64,000 nucleotides of DNA from the human T2T-CHM13v2.0 reference genome, Homo sapiens: the NCBI RefSeq assembly GCF_009914755.1, contig NC_060930.1. One strand, written 5' to 3'. Under the pieces are notes generated by a model. It had not been told where the DNA came from and made no database searches. It saw only the letters and a list, made by a program, of their open reading frames with translations. The translations under genes were made by a program, and so were the position numbers. Of this stretch, positions 1 through 44,866 are shown in pieces (positions within the stretch are counted from its first letter, which is position 1; the number at the start of each line of letters is the position of its first letter).

Positions 1-1067
1 CACCAACCAGGGCCTGTTTATATTTCCCCAAGTCCCAGTGCTCATGGGCAACTCTCACTGGTGTCACAATGTCAATATCATAAGTTTTGGCTTTGCAAGG
101 GAAAAGGGGTCCTTCTGCATGATGTCAATCCCTGGGTACAACTCTGCATTCTCCCTGCTGCTCCATAATTTGCTGAACCCAGAAACATCTTGATCCTAAT
201 TATAGTAAATGTGCAGTAACAAGTAGAAGGCACTGTAATGAGGAACAGTTTACTAAGGAGCCTGGGTTTCTTGATTTTTATTTTATTCTCATCCCATCTC
301 CTCCATTCACCACCAAAGCTCAGGAACCAATTTGGAAGAAACATCTGAGAATCTTATCACTTTCTGAACATTTTAAAAGTATACTCTACATTAATAATGA
401 AAGATCATCAAGTGCTAGAATCAAGGGCTACCGTTGGGGTATGGTGTCTAGAACATGGCAGAAGGGGGGCTTCTGGGGTGCTAGTATTGTCTGTTTCTTG
501 ATCTGAGTGCCGGTTGTATGCAAATGAATTAGTTTATACAATTTATTGAGATATTCACTTGTGATTTATTCATTTCTTTGTAAGTATATTTCTTTTAAAA
601 GTTTACTGCCAAATAAAATCCACTGCCACTGCCTCCAGCAGCTCATGTTCTGGAGCCACAGCCTAGATCTAGCTGAGTAGGTTGTGTGCAGCCCTGGCTA
701 TCAGAGTTAAACATTCGTGCTGGGTCCCTAATACTATTTCCAGATATGGTTCCATTAGAAAATAAATGTATTCAAGGAGAGGAAGGCAGCTGATTTTGAT
801 ATCCACCAACCAGCAATGTGGCCTAGCTTAAATAATCATTCTCTGGTCTCCATGCATACCCTTCCCTTCTGAGGGGGCAGTATAGTTCCTCCTGCGAAGG
901 AATGTGCTGAAGTGAGTGGAAGTGGCTGAAACCTAAAGTTCAAGTAAATATTTTTCTAGCCACAAGAGCATTGTTCTTGTGTCAGCTGAGTTACGTAAGT
1001 GGTAGTAAAAAAAAATGAGGGAAGAGGGGAGAACTTCTAATCCTGTCCAGAAGAACTGACCTGGGAG
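1..1067 (-). promoter_or_regulatory. Duplicated block copy 1: putative V1R promoter module, paralog of 30174-31280; its gene would lie left of the window
   Basis: Colinear with 30174-31280. Minus-strand TATAAA at 22-17, TGACA sites at 62-66, 70-74 and 123-127, TCCCTGGGT 129-137, TAATTA 197-202, TAATGA 236-241. The duplication is seen directly; the promoter role is inferred. Confidence 0.55.
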
Positions 1068-20445: not shown

Positions 20446-21027
20446 TGTCATGTTCACGACTATACCAATTGTCATGTTGAGGTCTGAAGGGAGTGGGTGG
20501 ATGAGCAGAAAGAACACTCGGCGGGGGGGGCACAGGCAGGTGAAAGATGCTTTATTCAGTAGTAACTCTCATCAACAGCTTACTCACACTAGCTTTCTCA
20601 CACTGTCTGCCTTGTCTAGCTGTCTGCTACAGCTCTGCAGCTCCTCTCAGCAGCCCCCTTCCACACGCAGCTGTATGGCCGGCTCTCCCCTGCCTTCAGG
20701 GTCATCAGCTTAACTCTTTCTCTCTCTGGTCATGAGCCGAGTTGTGCTGTGCCCTGGCTCCCCACTGTCTATCTGCAAAGAGGGACAGCTTTGATTCTCT
20801 CTTTCTCTGGGCACGAGTGCACCTGCACAGTGTCAACAGGGCAATTATACATTTTATAGACAACAGTGGCTCAGAGCCAAGTGATGGCCTTCCCATGTTA
20901 TGGCTACATAGTTGTGTTTACATTATCCATGGAATCGTGCGCCTGTGTTCCAAACTCGCTGAGTCATTCTGGCCCAGATGACTGCCTCGGCCTATTCCTT
21001 GACCAAAGCACAGCCATGTTTCTTACA
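20446..21027 (-). mobile_element. LTR18B (ERVL class) solo LTR
   Basis: Reverse complement begins tgtaagaaacatggctgtgctttggtcaaggaataggccgagg; 5-bp TSD TATAC (20441-45 / 21028-32). Confidence 0.8.
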
Positions 21028-21079
21028 TATACCTTTAGTTACTGGAGGAGTTAATGTAGAAAGTAATTTTCCCAACTTC

Positions 21080-21977
21080 TTAGTGAGTGTGCCAGCAGTT
21101 AACCAAATGGAATCCCTGCTGATCAGCATGAAGGGACTGGCACAGGCATAACCAACTGTTAGAAATATTTTCATACTTAATATCATAAAATCATTTGTCA
21201 AGCTGGAACCTATGTAGAAGGAGAAAATAAAATCTGCCCAATAAAAGAAAGGAAACAGGTCATGAGAATGAGAGTACTTTGAGTAGCTCTGATCTCTGGG
21301 CTGGAATTATTTGCAAACCTGGAGCTCTGAAGGCAGGAGACATGCTTGTGATGTTTATACAGATGATAAGCCATGGACCCACTTTTCCAGCCCATGAGAC
21401 TCTGAAAGATGATATCACAAAGAGCCATGAGAGTGAGAAAAACCCACCAAACTTTCCCTTTGCTTAGATGGTGGCATATAGCAATAACTAATATGTGGTC
21501 TAATTTCAGACCTATTCATGCTATTAACTGCTCTAAGGTAGCAGAGCAAGTTGGAGCTTATCAGAAAATTAAAGATCCAAAAGAGGAAGAGATAAGGAAG
21601 AACTTGCCAGGCAGTCCGTAGTTTGACCACGAGGTGGTCTTGGGACTGATGGTGATGGCCTGTACCACACTGAGGAGACAGGTGGTGCAGACGGAAAGGC
21701 CCCAAGCTACCTTCCCTAAATAAATTGTAGTTTTACAACCAGCATTATCTAGGAAGTTACTGAAATGAAAAGCTGACACTACATCTGAGATTCCTCTGAC
21801 ACAAAGTGTCATTGCATTAGTAAAAGCCAGGCGGATAAGAATAAGGTCTATGGGTTTTTTCTTGGAACTCATGACAAACATGTACACATGCTTCGCAAAC
21901 AAAAAGAAATTCCCTCCAATGCCAGATCCAGTAAAAGAAATAAAGATTATTCCCTGGATGGAGTTATTCCAGATCAT
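21080..21977 (-). pseudogene. VN1R13P: Vomeronasal type-1 receptor pseudogene, at least 4 frameshifts
   Basis: V1R motifs across frames: GIGGNFFLF, KKPIDLILIRLAFTN, CKTTIYLGKVAWGLSVCTTCLLSVVQAITISP, YKHHKHV, SPEIRATQSTLILM, VGYACASPFMLISRD; ancestral end HLVNCWHTH* with TAA at 21082-21080. Symbol from recalled locus order. Confidence 0.92.
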
Positions 21978-22040
21978 TCTCTGACTTCATGGACAAAACC
22001 AAGAGGAACCTTTTGAGAAAAACAAACAAAGTGAGGATAA

Positions 22041-23030
<990 letters not shown>

Positions 23031-28769: not shown

Positions 28770-29090
28770 GTTTGTTTGTTTTGTTTATTTTGAGACAGTG
28801 TTCTGCTCTGTTGCCCGGGCTAGAGTGCAGTGGTGTGATCACAGCTCATTGCAGCTTAGACCTGCTGGGTTTAAGCAGTCCTCCCACCTCAGCCCTCAGC
28901 CACTCTCCCACCACAGCAGAGAATACAGGCACATGCCATCACGCCCGGTTAGTTTTTACTTTTTAATTTTTTGTAGAAATGAGGTCTCTCTATGTTGCCC
29001 AGGCTGGTCTCAAACTCCTGAGCTCAAGTGATCCTCCTACCTCAGCCTCCCAAGGTGCTAGAATTACAGGCATGAGCAACCATGCTCAGC
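28770..29090 (-). mobile_element. AluJ
   Basis: Diverged Alu. Confidence 0.8.
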
Positions 29091-29289
29091 ATCTCATCCC
29101 CTCAATCTTTGTGATCATCCTCTTTGCTACTCCTCTGATCACTCCCTCCCAGGTCAACTTATCTAATTCCTACTTCCCACCCTGACTGATATGCTCACTG
29201 TCTCTGAATCTCCTAGATGTTTATCTAGTGTCCTTGGGTCTAGGAGATACAACTGCACAGATTCACAAGAATTAGCTTTGCCTTCAGTC

Positions 29290-29510
29290 ACTCTAAAGTT
29301 CAAGTCTTGGCTTTCCTAATTTGTATCTGCATATTACTTGACCTCTGTAAGACCCAATATTCTCATCTGTAAAATAAGGGCAGTGCTTTGTACTGTACTG
29401 GTCTCTAGTGAGGAATGAGGACTGAAGGAGCTGATGTAGGAAGTGCTTATATATGTGCTTGGCAACTAAGTACTGAAGAACAATTTTCCATAAGGTAACT
29501 ATTAGTATTA
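29290..29510. mobile_element. MIR
   Basis: ttctcatctgtaaaataaggg core. Confidence 0.6.
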
Positions 29511-30124
29511 TTATGATGTGCTTTTTACATCTGTCCTATTCCCCACATCTCAACAATTTTCTAAAAAAGTACACCGTATTATGTTTTGGAGCTAGGGTGT
29601 TAATTTAAAGAAAAATGCAGAATAAATTTAAACATCCTCAGAATACTAAACCTTATTAAAGAAGACAAAAGTGCCACGTAAAGAAAAGATTGAAGGACAC
29701 TAGAGATAATATGCATAGCTTAACTAAAAATTCCAACTGCTAGGAAAGAAAGTGCACAAATGCTAAGGGAAGAATGCAGAGAAAAAGTGCTCCCACACAT
29801 CCAGGCTGACATGTCACTGATGTCTGATGTCACCTATACCTCTCTTCCTTGTATAAGAAGGGGCAGCTCCAGGCACAGTGCATCAAACACTGCTGTACAA
29901 TGGCTCTGGCTCCCTTGTGGACCAGAAAGAAGCAGATGTTTCTGGATGGGAGTTGGGAAATGATCAGCCACCTTCTCCCTGGGCCCTGGAATCTTCCTCT
30001 TCCACAAGTGACAGAAGACCTCAGAATCTTCTCTTTCACTGCCTACCCCTGACCAGCTCTGCCCTGGACAGTCCCCTTCCAAAGCCAAAGGCAGCCCCAA
30101 TCCACAGTTGTCAGGTACACTCAC

Positions 30125-31280
30125 CTGGGGAGTCTGTGCAGCATGCCTCTGGGTGGCTGTTCTGGCAGAGCAGCACCAACCAGGGCCTGTTTATATTTCC
30201 CCAAGTCCCAGTGCTCATGGGCAACTCCCACTGGTGTCACAATGTCAATGTCATAATTTCTGACTTTGCCAAAGGAAAAGGGGTCCTTCTGTACAATGTC
30301 AATCCCTGGGTACAACTCTGCCCTCTCCCTGAGGCTCGATAATTTGCTGGGCCCAGAAACATCTTGATCCTAATTATAGTAAATGTGCAGTAATGAGTAG
30401 AAGGCACTGTAATGAGGAACAGTTTACTAAGGAGTCTGGGTTTCTTCATTTTTACTATATTCTCCTCCCATCTCCTCCATTCACCACCAAAGCTCAGGAA
30501 CCAATTTGGAAAAAAAAAACCTGAGAATCTAGAGTGGTCACTTTCCGAACATTTTACAAGTGTGTTCTACATTGATTATGAAAGATCATTGATTGCCAGA
30601 ATCAGGGGCTTCTCTTGGGGTGTAGTGTCTAGAACATGGCCGAAGTGGGGCCTCTGGTTGCTGGTATTGTCTGTTTCTTGATCCAGGTGCTAGTTTTATG
30701 CATATAAATTAGTTTATACAATTCATTAAGATATTCATTAATGATTTCTGCATTTCTTTGTATGTATATTTCATTTAAAAGTTTACTGCCAAATAAAATA
30801 TACTGCCACTGGCTCTGGAAGCTCATGCCATGGAGTCACAGCCCAGACTAGCTGAGTAGGATGTGTGTAGCCCTGTCTATCAGAGTTAAACCTTCATGCT
30901 GGGTCCCTAATAGCTTTTCCAGAAATGGTTCCATTAGACAATAAAGGGATTCAAGGAGAGGAAGACAGCTGATTTTGATATCCACCATCTAGCAATACGG
31001 CTTAGCTTAAATAATCTTTCTCTGTTCTTCACTCATACCCTTCCCTTTTGAGTGGCCAGTATAGTTCTTGATGCGAAGGAATGCACTAAAGTGAATTCCA
31101 GCTGAGACCTAAAGTTCAGGTAAATATTTTTCTAGACACAAGAGCACCTGTGCTTATGTCAGCTGAGTTAGGTAAGTGGTAGTTTAAAAAAAACAACAAT
31201 AACAAACAAACAAAACAAAACAAAACAAAACAAAACAGGGAAGAGAGGAGGACTCCAAAGGAATGGAATTGACCTGGTAG
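30125..31280 (-). promoter_or_regulatory. Putative promoter and short non-coding first exon of the minus-strand V1R pseudogene (duplicated block copy 2)
   Basis: Minus-strand TATAAA 30195-30190, ~40-nt exon ending CCCCAG|GTGAGT at 30125/30124; four TGACA; TCCCTGGGT 30303-30311; TAATTA 30371, TAATGA 30391 and 30410; matching acceptor ttttctcaaaag| at 22010/22009 just before the V1R ATG. Confidence 0.6.
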
Positions 31281-32213
31281 CAGAGGCTGGGGTCGGGGCC
31301 GGGGACAGTTTCTTTCACAATCCTGAATGATGCAGCATGATCATTGCGGACTCCTCTGCTATTGCAACCTGAAGAGACATAATTTCCCTCACTTACATTT
31401 TTATTCAATTCTTACAACCTTTCGATGTGATATTTGAGCTCCCTCCAAACTCAAGTTTGTGCGTGTGTGTGTGTGTGTATCACAACCACACATTATCTAC
31501 TATTTGCAGAGCTCTTGTATCAGGATATAAAAAAATCTAGGCATAAGTAATTCCATTAGATGCACAACAGATTTTTCAAATTTTCTGCTAAGTGCATGTG
31601 AGAAGATGAACATAAATATTTAATAATGTATTATACATCTAGAGAATTTCATGTAAATTATTTGAACTTCATGATAACCACGGAAATAAGATGCTGAGGC
31701 CAGGTGGGCTAAATTGCTTCCTCAAGGATGCATAAATAAGACGCCGACCTAGATCTCATGACTTATGTTCATCAAAGTCTCCCTAAATTAGTAAAACAAC
31801 AAGCCACAAACTGACAAAATATATTTACAACAAAGTATTCTGAATTAGTATTCAGAATATATATTAAAACTGGCTTAAAATAGACCAGAAAAGGATAAAA
31901 CTAAAAAAGCACAAAAAACATGGCCATTTCATAGAAGGATAAAAAAAATGCATGGAATATAAAAAGACACAGATACACTCAATCTCAATAATTTTATGGC
32001 AATGTGAATTAAAACCAAAATAAATACTTTTTATCAAATTTAAACAGACAGAATACCAGGTGTTGGTGAGCATATAGAACAGTGGGGACTTATGGCTGAT
32101 AGTGTTAATTGGAACATCAGGGGAAATAATTTGACTAATTATTAACTAGTATGTTTGAACAACTCATATCTTATGACTACGCAACAAATTACTACATATA
32201 TACTTTACTATTA

Positions 32214-36351: not shown

Positions 36352-36736
36352 ACTACGATGGTTTGAGTGTATCCTCCAAAAGTTCACATGTTGGAACCTT
36401 AATTCCCTAAAGTGGAAGGATTGGGAAATAGGGCCTGGTGGAAGGTATTTGGGTTATCTCTGCCCTCATGAAGAGATTCATGCAGTTCTGGCTAACTGGG
36501 TTAGTTCTCATGAGAGTGAGTTGTTATAAAACCAGTCAGCCTGCTTCTTTTTCCCTCTTTCATCCACATTCTCTTGTCGTGTTGCTTTTTCACCATGTCG
36601 TGATGCAGAACAAAAACCCTTGCCAGAAGCCAGTCCCATGACCTTGGACTTCCCAGCCTCCAGAATAAACTTCTTTTCTTTACAAATTACCCGGTCTAAG
36701 GTATTCTGTTATAGCAACAGAAAATGAACCAAGACA
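36352..36736 (+). mobile_element. MST-type MaLR LTR
   Basis: atggtttgagtgtatcctccaaaagttcacatgttgg...tattctgttatagcaacagaaaatgaaccaagaca. Confidence 0.8.
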
Positions 36737-36739
36737 TTT

Positions 36740-39330
<2,591 letters not shown>

Positions 39331-39435
39331 AGAAAAAGTATAGCAATGGAGAGGCCAAGTAATTCATCAAATATTGCCCATCCAATGTAACCCAGCCAGA
39401 AATCATTAAAGTTCACATGTAAACCCCGAAACTGT

Positions 39436-39743
39436 TGAGACAGCCGAGTAAAAAGGGCTCCCCAGAGAACCTCCGACCCACCTGTGCACTGGGAAAAGGG
39501 GGTGGAGCCACGAAGTTAGCGTGGTTTGCAGAGGGGAGGAGCCCAGCCTCTTGTGTTCCTGTGTGGTGGGGCAGGAGCAGGTTAACAGGCCTCCCTCTCA
39601 CTCTGCTGAAAGTATTTCTTTTTCCTTTTTCGCGCAATAAATTCCATTTTTTTCACCCTTCTATGCATCCTCAAGCCTAATCTTTCCTGGTTATGTGACA
39701 AGAACCCGGTTTTTAGCTGAACTAAGGAGAAAGTCCTACAACA
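39436..39743 (+). mobile_element. MER61-family ERV1 solo LTR
   Basis: tgagacagccgagtaaaaagggctccccagagaacctccgacc...tttagctgaactaaggagaaagtcctacaaca. Confidence 0.75.
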
Positions 39744-40149: not shown

Positions 40150-41052
40150 ATGAGGATACTGTCACATTGAATGAAGACCAGTGACCAGAAGCCTGCCTCA
40201 CAGCCCAGCTCAGTGAGAAAAATAATTCCATTCTCACCTCTAATCTCAACCCTGTGTCACCATTTATGTATAGTCCTTTGCATTAGTGTCTGGAAAGGTC
40301 ATTTTTTGAGGGCAGAATGAATAACCTATAGAAGGATCATTCTTGGGTATAATGAATTAAAGAAGTATTATGAAGCTTTATAAGGCAGGATTAGCTCATA
40401 AAAATGGAGGGTTCTTTTGCTTTTCCAGTCCCATTTGTTGTTTCACAGACAAAGAATAAAACAATCACTGATGGCAAAGACTGCAAACTGCCAACGTTCA
40501 TCGGTAGAGCAAGGTGACGCTCGTCCTGTCCAGGCCTGTGGTTGGGATAAGCTCAGAAAGCAGAGTCTCCAGGGCTGGTCATCATCTATCATAACCCTGC
40601 GTATAAAGAATGCCTTGAGAAAGAAAAGAAGTGACTTATTATGTGTCTTCTGACCTGGTTCTCATTTTTATTCAAAACATTAGAACCTTGGGAAGATGAA
40701 GAGAGGGCCAGAAAAATGGGAAACCCTGGATACAGAAACTTGGCTAGCTGTTTACTTTTTCACTGTACATCTTTCTATTGCAATAGTTAAACCCCAATTA
40801 AGACTGAAATAACTCCTGAGGCAAACAAACGTAATTGTGGAGACAGAGGGGAAAATGTACTTCAGGGACTAGGATCCTGCAGAGGGTTTCCGTCTTCCTG
40901 ACAGAAAAACAACTTTGAAAATTTGAGTCCTGGTAATAGTTTGTTAACCAAGAACTCTACAAATCCAGAAGGCACAAACATGGCTTGGGGAGCCTTACCT
41001 TGCCAGAAGGACTAACCCAGAGCTTTACTACACCATAGCTACCAAGGTGAGT
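40150..41052 (+). promoter_or_regulatory. Putative promoter and 5' non-coding exon of the plus-strand V1R pseudogene
   Basis: TAATGA 40350-40355, O/E-like TCTCCAGGG 40566-40574, TATAAA 40602-40607, donor AAG|GTGAGT 41046/41047; acceptor ctttcttcatacag| at 43927, 30 nt before the ATG. Confidence 0.45.
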
Positions 41053-43956
41053 AGACCTGACAATTCTTTTATTTATTCACATATGCCATATAATATTTCC
41101 CTCAGAAGTATGCATCTTGCTTTGTTCTTTGACTAAGCAAGGGAGTTTATGTGAGCCAGAGGACCTTGACTCTGCATCTAATCTTTACCTGGGGTCATAA
41201 ACATGAAGGGGACCATTTCCAGAAGATGACCCTAGAAATGCTTGAGCATCTTTGTCCCAGTGTTCAGGATCTTGTACTGTAAGAGAGGTCCGGGGTGGTT
41301 CTTCCTATAAGGTTCCCTCTTTGGTTTCATCCAAAAATCACAAAGATAAAAAAGCTTTTCAGGTTTCTAGAAAAAACTCATTTTTAGGCTTACATTTTCA
41401 CCTGCATTATAACTCTATCAGCATTATTAGCTTTCATCAAATTTCTTCATATCGTTTTTGGTGCATTTCTGTGATTTGCAAGTGGGCCAACTTTGTCTTT
41501 ACCTATTAAGTAGTTAATTCATTAAGAAAGAGATAGAGAGAGTGTGTGTGTATATCTTGAAGGTTTTCTTTCTGCATCCATCCTTAAAGTCTCCTAATCC
41601 AATATATAATATTGTATCATATACAGAAGTCAACTTCATTAACCATATGCCAGTTTAATGGAAGCATCTATTAACAATCATTATGATTAAAAATCATACT
41701 TGCTCTTCAGAAATTTTCCACTTTTATTTTTGGCCAGGCTATAAGTAAGTATAACCTGATGTAACCCTGTAAATTTACCCTGGCATTATGTAGCAGGGAG
41801 CACTAATCTCATTTTCAGTTGAGAAAACTGGAGCTGAAATGGGTGCACTTCCTTACCTGCCTAAGCTATTAGGTATTAGAACTGGATGGAGCACTACACA
41901 TCTATCTGAATGTGAAGCATGTTTTTTCAAATAGTTTTCAATCATGATTCCAAAAACAACTTGGAAGACCAGTCACCCTTCCTTCCTCTGATATTTTTCT
42001 TATTATTCAGTCAAAAAAATGGAAGTGTCTTATTAGTATTACAGAAGCTAATCTCTAATCTGAATCAGAGCTTTGGAACCTTGGGAAGATGAAGAGAGGG
42101 CCAGAAAACTGTGAAACCCTAGAAAAAGATAAGAAGAAACAAACATAAAAATATTTGATAAGGACATCAGGGTGGTGAAGTGTATGCAGGACATTCATTT
42201 TTGACAAATTCCAGGTTTCTGACTAAATATGTAACCAGTTCTTACTCCAAACCTATTAGTCCATACTGCTCTTCTTGTTATTAAAGCCTGTAGTTCATTT
42301 CACTATAGGCTATCCAGTTCAGATCATGTAATGCTTTGTTTAATGCATTGATATAGATGTTAGTCTCTTCATTTGGCACTGGAGGAAACTGAGGCAGAAA
42401 AGCAATAACTAATATTCCAAAAGTTATAAAGTTTCCTGGTATAAGACCTGAGTACAAGCCTAAATTCAGGCAGTTCACACTGCCAGGGACCTTTAAGACA
42501 AATTAAGATAAATCTAAGGCATCTCTTAGTGATTAGTAGAAAATGAAAGGGGACAAGGCTTATAGAAAGGTTAGATCAAACATCCTGGTTTCTTTTGTTT
42601 TGGGGGATTTATTTGTAGTTTGATGTAAGTTCTGGAAAAGAAGTGAGATTGGAGAGGTTGATTGTGAAAGAGTAAAATCCTGTTCAGACAAAAAGAGTAA
42701 AAATTAGCTTGGACTGGTAAAGATCAAAGTAGCTCTCCTGTTACCAATGTTGGGAGAACAGACACAGGTAGATCTGGTTACAGAGTCAACTGGACTCACT
42801 GGTTACACAGCAGTTGTAAACTGCCATAATTGCACCATTTGAGTGATGACTCTTTTCTTACCAATGTAGCCCCAACCTGCCTTGTATATCCAGACATCAG
42901 AGATCTCTAATTTATAAACTGCCTTCATCTCGTGACAGTATGCAATAGCTAATTAATCTACCTCTCCTAATGGCCCTTGAGAAACATCAACACATCAACA
43001 ACTCCGCTTAGGGGCCCCTCAGATCCATCAGTGGGAACTCAGACCTCTCCTAAATGCCCTTGTAGAGTGACATTCTATGGTTCCTCTAGAGCACCTTCTC
43101 TGGCTACATCCAGTCCATGTATCTCATTGTTTTTCAGCAACAGGCTTGTTCCTGAAGGTCTTTGGCTGATTAACCATTAACATTTGAGGTCCTACAGTGA
43201 AATGCTATGCAGTTTGACTTTATATGGAGTACTTGGAAAACCCACTGAAAACTTGTAAGTACTGAAATTACAGATTCAGTTCGGGGTCTTGAAAGACAAC
43301 TCAGAAATATTAAGGAATATAAATCAAAGATATGAAAATAAGAAGAGATAAACCAGAAATTGTTATACTAATCAAAATGATAGACATATAGGCATAATGA
43401 ATAAAAGAAGTATCACAGAAGATAAAACATTGTTAAACTTGAGAAATGTTAAAGATGTTGAAACAACATGATTTTATGAGTGTCTGTCTGTTGAATGTGG
43501 AAGAGGTAGAGGGGTTAAGGGTGAGCACCAGGTTTTTGAAATTGGCTGATAGGAATATTAAGAATAAGTAGAAAATGGAGACATTCAGGTTGGGGGAATT
43601 GTTTTAGTTCAATTCAGCATATGCTGAGACTTAAAATATGTGGGATATATCAGAATTTGAACAAGCAAGTTGGTCTTGCAGCTATGGAGATCAGGAAAAC
43701 AAAATCTGTTTCCCAAATTTAGATTTTTGTATCCTCTTCCAAGATGACATTTAAGGTCACATGGTATGTTCATCAAAGAGTGTCACAGGGAAAGGACTAC
43801 AGTTCTTTGGACAAAAATCTGCTCTGTTACATATATTATGATTTCCTTTATCCACTAGAAATGTGCTATGATATGATTTTTTTGCAGATACATATATATC
43901 ATCATAACTGGTACTTTCTTCATACAGTGTTTCCTTGATCTAAATATTTTCTGCCC

Positions 43957-44866
43957 ATGAAGTTAGAAATGGCTTTGAATATTATCAAGGGAACAATATT
44001 CCTGTTTCTAACTGGACTTGGCATTGTGGGGAATGTTTTGGTTTTGGTAAACTATATGTGCATTTTCTTTTGGGGGACTGAGAAGAAGTCTTTACACTTT
44101 ATTCTTATTCACTTAGCTTTTACAAATATCATACTTCTATTTTCCAAAGGAATGCCCAAGACAATAGCAGCTTTTGGTTTGAAAAACTTCCTAGATGATA
44201 CAGGCTGTAAAATTGTTGCTTATCTGGAGAGGGTGGCTCGAGGCCTTTCCATCTGCACCAGCAGTCTCCTCACTGTGGTCCAGGCCATCACCATCAGTCC
44301 CAGAGCCTGCATGAGGGGGAGGCTCAAGCTGAGGTCTGCATGACAAGTCCTTCCCTTGTTTCTCTTTTTTTTGGACATTCAGTTCCTTGATAACCATAAA
44401 CTTACTTCATTCCATCACAAATAGCAACATGAACAGATCACAAATTAGTGAAAAGGATAACTACTGTTATTTTCTAGCAGGGAGATCGGTAATAAGACGG
44501 ATTTTTCTCACACTGATAGTCTTGCAAGATGCCCTGTTTCAGGGTCTAATGGGCTGGGCCAGCAGCTACATAGTATTTCTTCTCCACCAGCATCACAAGC
44601 ATGTTCTTCACATTCAGAACTCCAAATTTCTGTACAAAACTCCCCCTGAGATAAGAGCTGCTCAAAGTGTTCTCCTTCTGATGATCTGTTTTGTTTTCTT
44701 TTATTGGATAGATTGTATTATTTCTTTATATTTAACTTTATCCTTAGAGAATAATTTCATAATATCAAATATTCAAGAATGTTTAACCCTTGGTTATGCA
44801 ACTCTCAGCCCTTTTGTGCTGATTCACAGAGATAGATGTGTGGCTGAATGTTGGCAAGTTCAGTAA
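43957..44866 (+). pseudogene. VN1R11P: Vomeronasal type-1 receptor pseudogene (one nonsense codon and one +1 frameshift)
   Basis: MKLEMALNIIKGTIFLFLTGLGIVGNVLV...CKIVAYLERVARGLSICTSSLLTVVQAITISP; TGA at 44341-43; T8 run 44365-72; ...PEIRAAQSVLLLM...GYATLSPFVLIHRD. Symbol from recalled locus order. Confidence 0.95.

What the first reader, a model, noticed from the sequence alone, without database searches (positions are those of the whole stretch)
30119..30450. Fossil V1R promoter module (HD + O/E + TALE + TATA + micro first exon) feeding the VN1R pseudogene 8 kb away
Seen on the minus strand, 5' to 3': TAATGA (30410, 30391) and TAATTA (30371) homeodomain sites; O/E(EBF)-like TCCCTGGGT (30303); four TGACA sites (30235, 30243, 30249, 30297), one as GATTGACA, which is PBX/MEIS-like; TATAAA (30195-30190); then an estimated ~40-nt exon ending in a consensus donor CAG|GTGAGT (30125/24). 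A strong acceptor (tttgtttgtttttctcaaaag|, 22010/09) sits 32 nt before the V1R ATG at 21977. Established: V1R genes have an intronless CDS with non-coding 5' exons and conserved promoters several kb upstream; HD and O/E sites define olfactory-receptor promoters; Meis2 marks V1R-class vomeronasal neurons. Inference: a complete, still readable V1R transcription unit whose cis-regulatory grammar (including a TALE cluster I do not recall being described) outlived the receptor ORF.
Basis: partly seen in the sequence, partly recalled or inferred. Interest (0 to 1): 0.8.

Follow-up and report, generated by a model that had tools for sequence, protein, structure and literature searches.

The report
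Relic V1R pheromone-receptor promoter and first exon
This stretch is most likely the dead promoter and tiny non-coding first exon of a human vomeronasal receptor pseudogene, built like the known mouse V1R promoters and present upstream of all three pseudogenes of its subfamily, so it is an ordinary relic.

Summary
Singly they are common. The support comes from paralogs. The 13P and 12P gene units share two homology peaks, the coding sequence and an upstream block at 29262-31192, separated by a weakly alignable intron. This is the mouse V1R "gene block" layout (PMC1955453). A third, much more diverged copy of exactly 30466-30100 lies 2.9 kb upstream of VN1R11P in sense orientation (nhmmer E 2.8e-7 and 3.1e-11). 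The consensus donor plus 11 following bases, an initiator-like GCCAGA 32 nt after the TATA box, ACCCAGAG, an AATTA core and half of the O/E-like site are invariant in all three copies. The acceptor AG also aligns in all three. The TATA box, both TAATGA sites and the TGACA/"TALE" cluster are absent from the third copy. The 12P and 13P copies are 96.8% identical over 500 bp, against 84% in the coding sequence, which points to gene conversion. No cross-species or transcript data were available. Verdict: a relic V1R promoter and first exon, a new member of a known kind; the TALE grammar is unsupported.

The parts
29262..31192 (-). Upstream homology peak shared by the VN1R13P and VN1R12P gene units (the broad promoter block)
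   Evidence: blastn gives 83% identity over 1944 nt to window -859..1015. Only 2 full copies exist in the 3.1-Gb genome. nhmmer gives 0.72-0.95 bits/nt here against about 0.2 in the intron.
30100..30466 (-). Core promoter and exon 1 module, the only part also conserved upstream of VN1R11P
   Evidence: nhmmer profile positions 724-1090 match window 40695-41065, E 2.8e-7. A single-sequence query gives E 3.1e-11. Three-way alignments A1 and A2.
30190..30195 (-). TATAAA box, present in the 13P and 12P copies and reading CACAAA in the 11P copy
30125..30163 (-). Predicted non-coding exon 1 (39 nt), running from the A of the invariant GCCAGA (initiator-like, 32 nt after the first T of the TATA box) to the donor
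   Evidence: GCCAGA and ACCCAGAG are invariant in the 3 copies. The start site is inferred, not measured.
30108..30127 (-). Splice donor CAG|GTGAGT followed by nnACCTGACAA. The last 19 nt (30126-30108) are invariant apart from the 2 nn positions in all three copies; the first base is C in 13P and 12P and A in 11P.
   Evidence: The 19-nt pattern has 4 exact matches in the genome, and 3 are these modules. Two of the 3 perfect consensus donors in the window are these.
29761..30260 (-). Tract of 96.8% identity between the 13P and 12P copies (16 mismatches in 500, perfect runs of up to 161 nt); putative gene-conversion tract covering the TATA box, exon 1 and about 360 nt of intron
   Evidence: 0 of 2000 shuffles reach it. 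No counterpart in 11P beyond about 12 nt past the donor.
30235..30415 (-).
   Evidence: It is 92% identical to 12P. In 11P only AATTA and CAGGGA are kept.
22009..22031 (-). Polypyrimidine tract and acceptor AG (22011-22010); exon 2 starts at 22009
   Evidence: The AG aligns in all three paralogs (A3).
21080..21977 (-). VN1R13P pseudogene coding region (open for 137 codons, then multiple stops)
   Evidence: plus the hub annotation.
1..292 (-). Upstream part of the paralogous module of VN1R12P. Its exon 1 and donor lie just before the window start, at about -10 to -48.
40695..41065 (+). Third, diverged copy of the module, 2.9 kb upstream of VN1R11P. Initiator-like GCCAGA has its A at 41005; the donor AAG|GTGAGT ends the exon at 41046.
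43914..43927 (+). VN1R11P acceptor ttcttcatacag|, 41 nt before the ATG at 43969

Best explanation
The block is the relic promoter, transcription start region and 39-nt non-coding first exon of VN1R13P. When the gene was alive, transcription is inferred to have started about 30 nt after the TATA box, at a conserved initiator-like GCCAGA near 30163. It ran to the donor at 30125/30124, and an 8.1-kb intron was spliced out to the acceptor at 22010/22009, 32 nt before the receptor ATG.

The same module serves, or served, the two other members of this small V1R subfamily. VN1R12P has an intron of about 5.0 kb and VN1R11P one of 2.9 kb. It is a subfamily-specific V1R promoter "homology peak" of the kind mapped in mouse.

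The near-identity of the 12P and 13P copies is best explained by non-allelic gene conversion, not by present function.

Shown here: the paralog conservation pattern, the invariant splice signals, the restriction to the subfamily, and the heterogeneity of identity. Inferred: past promoter activity, the start site, actual splicing, and which factors bound.
For: 1. Two homology peaks. The coding sequence (21027-22031, 82.5% by blastn; 84% over the annotated CDS 21080-21977 in the MAFFT comparison) and the upstream block (29262-31192, 83%) are the strong collinear non-Alu matches between the 13P and 12P units. The intron is homologous but far more diverged, at about 0.2 bits/nt against 0.72 in the coding sequence and 0.87-0.95 in the promoter core. 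Stewart & Lane describe exactly this layout, with mapped start sites inside the upstream peak (sections read).

2. A third copy of 30466-30100 lies at 40695-41065 (+), 2.9 kb upstream of VN1R11P. E is 2.8e-7 in 184 kb searched and 3.1e-11 with a single-sequence query. Homology stops about 12 nt past the donor.

3. There were 0 hits in 100 kb upstream of 6 more distant V1Rs. The 361-nt core has 2 copies genome-wide. V1R protein identities are 58% (12P), 48% (11P) and at most 45%, over shorter alignments, for the other 37 of 40 matches. This fits promoter homology confined to a subfamily.

4. The donor is a perfect consensus in all 3 copies, and the 19-nt donor pattern has 4 exact genome matches, 3 of them these modules. 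The acceptor AG is aligned in all 3.

5. Sizes fit published ranges. Mouse V1R 5' UTR exons are 22-518 bp and introns 237 bp to 39 kb, with O/E-like sites in 39 of 39 promoters near the start site. The V1R-derived Fpr-rs3 promoter has a 53-bp first exon and a 24-kb intron.

6. Gene conversion. Jukes-Cantor distance (K) for the 12P-13P module is 0.069 against 0.18 for the coding sequence, whereas against 11P the module (0.72) is more diverged than the coding sequence (0.45-0.48). There are 16 mismatches in 500 nt and a perfect run of 161 nt; 0 of 2000 shuffles reach this.
Against: - No transcript, CAGE or chromatin evidence and no orthologous sequence from any other species could be consulted. 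Promoter activity and splicing are therefore inferred from sequence alone.
- All three copies descend from one duplicated unit, so their sense orientation is not independent evidence.
- Global identity of the 11P copy to the others is only 53.5%. Conservation there is concentrated in exon 1 and the donor, and in short patches.
- The TATA box is absent from the 11P copy.
- The 13P and 12P acceptors have A at position -3 (AAG), which from memory is an uncommon acceptor form. A second candidate acceptor (gtcag|a) lies 3 nt before the ATG.
- Part of the upstream block (about 30647-30793) gives weak matches on chromosomes 2 and 14 and may be an old interspersed repeat.
Confidence: 0.75

Rival explanations
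1. Merely co-duplicated DNA. The block never was a promoter; it is a patch of the ancestral duplicated unit that stayed alignable by chance or by gene conversion alone, and the motifs are chance matches.
For: Most motifs are common in the window. Most are not kept in the 11P copy. Gene conversion by itself can create an identity peak between 12P and 13P.
Against: Conversion between 12P and 13P cannot explain why the same 370 nt is the only strongly detectable non-coding homology with the much older 11P unit. It also cannot explain why homology there ends just after a perfectly conserved consensus donor, or why an aligned acceptor sits before each ATG.
Confidence: 0.12
2. A living element in humans. 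The nearly identical 500-bp tract is kept by selection because it still works today, for example as the promoter and first exon of an unannotated spliced non-coding RNA or as a regulatory element using the TGACA(T) sites.
For: 96.8% identity over 500 nt with perfect runs of 116-161 nt. A further TGACAT-rich palindromic patch lies at about 29833-29800 inside the tract. TATA box, initiator-like site and donor are intact in both copies.
Against: The tract includes about 360 nt of presumed intron with no counterpart in 11P. Identity is patchy: 6 mismatches fall within about 53 nt (30042-29990) between perfect runs, as in mosaic conversion tracts. RefSeq lists no transcript or functional element here (hub annotation). 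Rfam gave nothing but an Alu/SRP match, and there were no Pfam hits on 3 open frames.
Confidence: 0.08
3. A fragment of an ancient transposable element that happens to carry TATA-like and donor-like sequences.
For: Weak matches (73-83% over 60-140 nt) of 30647-30793 to 4 other loci. A MIR-like core lies near 29335-29400; that consensus is recalled, not tested.
Against: The 361-nt core has only 2 genome copies at E<=0.001. The 11P copy is unique apart from a 65-nt local echo. The weak repeat-like matches lie outside the core module.
Confidence: 0.03

Closest known systems
Mouse V1R subfamily promoter 'homology peaks' (Stewart & Lane 2007, PMC1955453; abstract and sections 6-7 read, passages of 11-12 seen)
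   Same: An upstream island of 0.5-1 kb of elevated paralog identity several kb from an intronless coding sequence. A second peak covers the coding sequence and its acceptor. Homology is confined to the subfamily. Promoter copies are sometimes more alike than the coding sequences, which the authors attribute to gene conversion.
   Different: Here all three genes are dead human pseudogenes and the subfamily has only three members. No start site has been mapped. The paper's cross-subfamily motifs are shown only as figures and supplements, which I could not see, so they were not compared.
Mouse V1R 5' gene structures and promoter motifs (Michaloski et al. 2011, PMC3247230; Results parts 1-2 read)
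   Same: A short non-coding 5' exon (published range 22-518 bp; 39-42 nt here) and a 5' intron (published range 237 bp to 39 kb; 2.9-8.1 kb here). An O/E-like site lies within 300 bp of the start; here it is about 140 nt upstream.
   Different: Their CNTCTGG/TCTGG motifs are here only as TCTGG at about -190 and as CCTCTGG on the opposite strand inside exon 1. These motifs are too short to weigh. The O/E-like site is only half kept in the 11P copy.
V1R promoter captured by Fpr-rs3 (Sci Adv 2022, PMC9668312; passages seen)
   Same: A 400-bp promoter, a 53-bp first exon and a very long intron before the coding exon. The promoter sequence is conserved within the family.
   Different: That promoter is active and was tested in transgenes.
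Odorant-receptor promoters with homeodomain plus O/E sites (title of PMC3247239 seen in a search listing only)
   Same: An AATTA-type site and an O/E-like site lie within about 210 nt upstream of the predicted start.
   Different: A different gene family. The strict O/E consensus is not met (1 mismatch), and only partial conservation is seen in the third copy.

Membership tests
V1R subfamily promoter peak with non-coding 5' exon | An upstream island of elevated non-coding identity among subfamily paralogs, separated from the coding sequence by a low-identity intron | tested here: met
   The promoter block is 85-97% identical, the coding sequence 84% and the intron about 67-71%.
V1R subfamily promoter peak with non-coding 5' exon | Promoter homology shared within the subfamily but not with other V1R subfamilies | tested here: met
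   Copies lie upstream of 3 of 3 subfamily members. There were 0 hits in 100 kb upstream of 6 other V1Rs. No further genome copies were found.
V1R subfamily promoter peak with non-coding 5' exon | A short 5' UTR exon with a donor, spliced over a kb-scale intron to an acceptor just upstream of the ATG | tested here: met
   Sequence signals only. The consensus donor is invariant in 3 copies and the acceptor AG is aligned in 3 copies. Exon 39-42 nt; introns 8.1, about 5.0 and 2.9 kb.
V1R subfamily promoter peak with non-coding 5' exon | An experimentally mapped transcription start inside the peak, with vomeronasal expression | not testable with these tools
   No RNA, CAGE or cross-species data were available.
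V1R subfamily promoter peak with non-coding 5' exon | O/E-like site(s) concentrated between +1 and -300 | tested here: inconclusive
   One site with 1 mismatch lies at about -140 in 13P and 12P. There are 10 such sites in the 64 kb. Only the CAGGGA half is kept in 11P.
PBX/MEIS (TALE) composite regulatory cluster | TGACA(G)-type sites, or a TGATTGACAG-like decamer (recalled consensus), enriched above background and conserved among paralogs | tested here: not met
   4 TGACA per 100 bp ties with another window locus. GATTGACA and the TGACA triplet read GACTAGGA and TTGAAAATTTGAGT in 11P. No binding data exist.
Interspersed repeat / transposon | Many dispersed genomic copies | tested here: not met
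   2 copies of the core. 2 full copies of the 2.1-kb block, with 4 weak partial matches outside the core.

The most novel reading that the evidence does not exclude
The roughly 500-bp tract that is nearly identical between the VN1R12P and VN1R13P upstream modules (TATA box, 39-nt exon, donor and 360 nt beyond, including TGACAT-rich patches) is kept alike because it still functions in humans. It could be a pair of promoters for unannotated spliced RNAs, or a TALE-bound regulatory element that outlived the receptors.
Probability: 0.07. Interest if true: 0.6.

Novelty: new member of a known kind. Interest (0 to 1): 0.3.

Why it matters
It shows that the promoter-plus-first-exon architecture mapped for mouse V1R genes can still be read upstream of human V1R pseudogenes, and it gives full gene models for three pseudogenes that are annotated only by their coding remnants.

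The strong homogenisation of two dead genes' promoters is a small natural test of an idea in the mouse literature. Stewart & Lane suggested that selection might favour gene conversion to keep V1R promoters alike. If the conversion here happened after the genes died, selection is not needed to explain it.

My rough dating uses recalled substitution rates and recalled timing of vomeronasal loss in catarrhines. It is compatible with conversion after gene death but does not prove it.

The finding does not open a new kind of system, and the proposed TALE grammar is not supported.

Tried and rejected
- **Earlier findings:** A second call failed on a missing field and was not repeated.
- **Genome-wide profile search:** I used an exact or 1-mismatch pattern instead. 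The 13 one-mismatch hits were fewer than the reversed-pattern control (93) and none was near a V1R, so no further family members were found.
- **Rfam** on 29000-31500: only an Alu/SRP match and one sub-threshold chance hit.
- **Pfam** on three open frames within 29837-30566: 0 families.
- **Bacterial promoter/terminator scan**: irrelevant to a human locus, no signal above shuffles; disregarded.
- **Soft-masking:** the window file carries none, so repeat status rests on genome copy number only.
- **Literature:**
  - The three pseudogene names occur in 4 papers, all GWAS-type listings.
  - Two searches for Meis2/TALE motifs in V1R promoters found no paper describing them; passages of PMC9525060 were read.
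  - A search for V1R pseudogene promoters and gene conversion in primates found nothing specific; in PMC6944220 the term "promoter" occurs only in the reference list.
  - Lane et al. 2002 (PMC117554) is not held.
- **Supplements:** Stewart & Lane's peak sequences and logos, and Michaloski's Figure S1, were closed. They could bear on the motif comparison.
- **Rejected idea:** that the abrupt end of 12P/13P homology about 22 nt upstream of the acceptor proves constraint on the acceptor. An interspersed repeat (22042-22676, similar to 36405-36737) abuts it in 13P.

Full report
**Observation**

- TCATTA (TAATGA on +) at 30415-30410 and 30396-30391
- TAATTA at 30376-30371
- O/E-like ACCCAGGGA at 30311-30303
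- GATTGACA at 30304-30297
- TGACA at 30253-30249, 30247-30243 and 30239-30235
- TATAAA at 30195-30190
- CAG|GTGAGT with the last exon base at 30125

The acceptor tttttctcaaaag|g has its AG at 22011-22010, 32 nt before the ATG at 21977.

Taken singly the motifs are not remarkable. Counted on both strands, the window holds 159 TGACA, 156 TAAT[GT]A and 111 TATAAA. The O/E-like site misses the strict consensus. Sites within one mismatch of TCCCNNGGGA (a consensus I recalled) number 10 in the window, and two of them are this site and its paralog. The TGACA density of 4 per 100 bp is the window maximum but is tied with a place inside the V1R coding sequence. Perfect MAG|GTRAGT donors are rare: 3 in the window.

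**What the block is: paralog evidence**

The window is human chr6 (T2T), and its genome can be searched.
- The 361-nt core has exactly two copies genome-wide. One is itself. The other is 93% identical at window -73..286, upstream of VN1R12P.
- blastn between the 13P and 12P gene units shows Alus plus three collinear blocks:
  - the coding sequence with its acceptor, 21027-22031, at 82.5% (84% over the annotated CDS in the MAFFT comparison)
  - a weak intronic block
  - 29262-31192, at 83% over 1944 nt
- A more sensitive nhmmer comparison shows that the intron is homologous but much more diverged. It scores about 0.2 bits per nt, against 0.72 in the coding sequence and 0.87-0.95 in the core of the upstream block.

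This is the V1R "gene block" described for mouse. One homology peak covers the coding region and its acceptor. A second peak of 0.5-1 kb lies several kb upstream, contains the RACE-mapped start sites, and is shared only within a subfamily (PMC1955453, section 6).

**A third, diverged copy**

By protein, VN1R13P is closest to VN1R12P (58%) and VN1R11P (48%). The other 37 of 40 genomic matches are at most 45% identical, over shorter alignments.

A profile of the 12P and 13P blocks was run over 84 kb of the locus plus 100 kb upstream of six other V1Rs. It found one further significant match: window 40695-41065 on the plus strand, E 2.8e-7, aligned to profile positions that equal window 30466-30100. 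A single-sequence query gives E 3.1e-11.

This copy lies 2.9 kb upstream of the VN1R11P ATG (43969, plus strand), in sense orientation. Nothing was found upstream of the six other V1Rs, and the 11P copy has no other genomic relative apart from a 65-nt local echo.

In the three-way alignments the following are invariant:
- the donor and what follows it, AGGTGAGTnnACCTGACAA
- GCCAGA
- ACCCAGAG
- CAGGGA, which is half of the O/E-like site
- an AATTA core

Homology with 11P stops about 12 nt past the donor. The 19-nt donor pattern has 4 exact matches in 3.1 Gb, and three of them are these modules. One-mismatch hits (13) are below the reversed-pattern control.

The acceptor AG aligns in all three genes: AAAAG| in 13P and 12P, ACAG| in 11P.

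The following are not conserved in 11P:
- the TATA box, which reads CACAAA
- both TCATTA sites
- GATTGACA
- the TGACA cluster

**Gene model (inferred)**

The A of the invariant GCCAGA is at 30163, 32 nt after the first T of TATAAA. From memory, this fits the canonical TATA-to-initiator spacing and a BBCABW-type initiator.

| Gene | Exon 1 | Intron |
|---|---|---|
| 13P | 30163-30125, 39 nt | 8.1 kb |
| 12P | 39 nt | about 5.0 kb |
| 11P | 41005-41046, 42 nt | 2.9 kb |

These values lie within the published mouse ranges. Mouse 5' UTR exons are 22-518 bp, introns are 237 bp to 39 kb, and O/E-like sites occur near the start in 39 of 39 promoters (PMC3247230). They also resemble the V1R-derived Fpr-rs3 promoter, with its 53-bp first exon and 24-kb intron (PMC9668312).

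Caveats:
- The AAG acceptor of 13P and 12P is, from memory, an uncommon form.
- A second candidate acceptor (gtcag|a) lies 3 nt before the ATG.

**Why 12P and 13P are so alike here**

Identity along the block is very uneven:

| Segment | Identity |
|---|---|
| 31192-30561 | 85% |
| 30560-30261 | 91% |
| 30260-29761 | 96.8% (16 mismatches in 500) |
| 29760-29262 | 71% |

- The longest perfect run is 161 nt. Neither that run nor the 500-nt minimum is reached in any of 2000 shuffles of the mismatch positions.
- Jukes-Cantor distance (K) for the module is 0.069 between 12P and 13P, against 0.18 for their coding sequences. In comparisons with 11P the module (0.72-0.73) is more diverged than the coding sequence (0.45-0.48).
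- The most identical tract includes about 360 nt of presumed intron that has no counterpart in 11P. Identity is also patchy, with 6 mismatches within about 53 nt (30042-29990) lying between perfect runs.

I read this as mosaic non-allelic gene conversion, the process Stewart & Lane proposed for some mouse V1R promoter subfamilies.

With recalled hominoid substitution rates, K of about 0.03 would put the last conversion in the order of 10-20 million years ago. That is possibly after vomeronasal signalling was lost in catarrhines (recalled). This dating is an inference only.

**Other readings tested**
- Transposon: only two copies of the core exist. Weak partial matches elsewhere fall at about 30647-30793, outside the core.
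- Structured RNA: Rfam gives only an Alu/SRP match at 29000-29090.
- Coding exon: three open frames within 29837-30566 have no Pfam family.
- RefSeq lists no transcript or functional element at the module (hub annotation).

**Literature**
- The three pseudogene names occur in 4 held papers, all as GWAS-type listings.
- I found no description of TALE or Meis motifs in V1R promoters in two searches, and none of human V1R pseudogene promoters.
- Motif logos and peak sequences of the mouse studies are in figures and supplements that I could not see.

**Verdict**

That core is a relic V1R promoter, a tiny first exon, a donor, a long intron and an acceptor. It has not been verified by transcripts or by other species.

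The specific HD + O/E + TALE "grammar" is not supported beyond an AATTA core and half an O/E-like site. The apparent survival of the module owes more to gene conversion than to constraint.

This is a new member of a known kind, of modest interest.

Noticed in passing
window 22042-22676 (-) and 36405-36737 (+); also about -15280..-15416: An unidentified interspersed repeat abuts the VN1R13P acceptor, about 33 nt upstream of the AG. It recurs upstream of the VN1R11P module, and it explains the abrupt end of 12P/13P homology there.
   Followed up: partly
window 29833-29800 (-): A TGACAT-rich patch with a TGACATGTCA palindrome sits inside the stretch that is 100% identical between the 12P and 13P units. 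It lies in the presumed intron and has no counterpart in 11P.
   Followed up: no
window about 29335-29400 (-) and 41800-41844 (+): A MIR-like core (consensus recalled from memory) lies at collinear intronic positions of the 13P/12P and 11P units (nhmmer E 0.0018). It may predate the duplications.
   Followed up: no
window 40672-40736 and 42065-42129 (+): A 65-nt local repeat (86% identity) links the 5' edge of the VN1R11P module to its intron. The neighbouring 42102-42354 also weakly matches the 13P intron at 28805-28559.
   Followed up: no
window 21991-21977 (-), 43957-43969 (+): An ATG lies shortly upstream of the annotated V1R start (ccATGaagtYaga...ATG). It is in frame in VN1R11P, out of frame in VN1R13P (a short upstream ORF), and lost (GTG) in VN1R12P.
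   Followed up: partly
window 30647-30793 (-): This stretch gives weak matches (73-83% over 60-140 nt) to chromosomes 2 and 14. It is probably an old interspersed-repeat fragment inside the broad upstream block. The family was not identified.
   Followed up: partly
window 39433-39512: A RefSeq-annotated silencer lies about 1.2 kb upstream of the VN1R11P promoter module. Any relation between them is unexamined.
   Followed up: no
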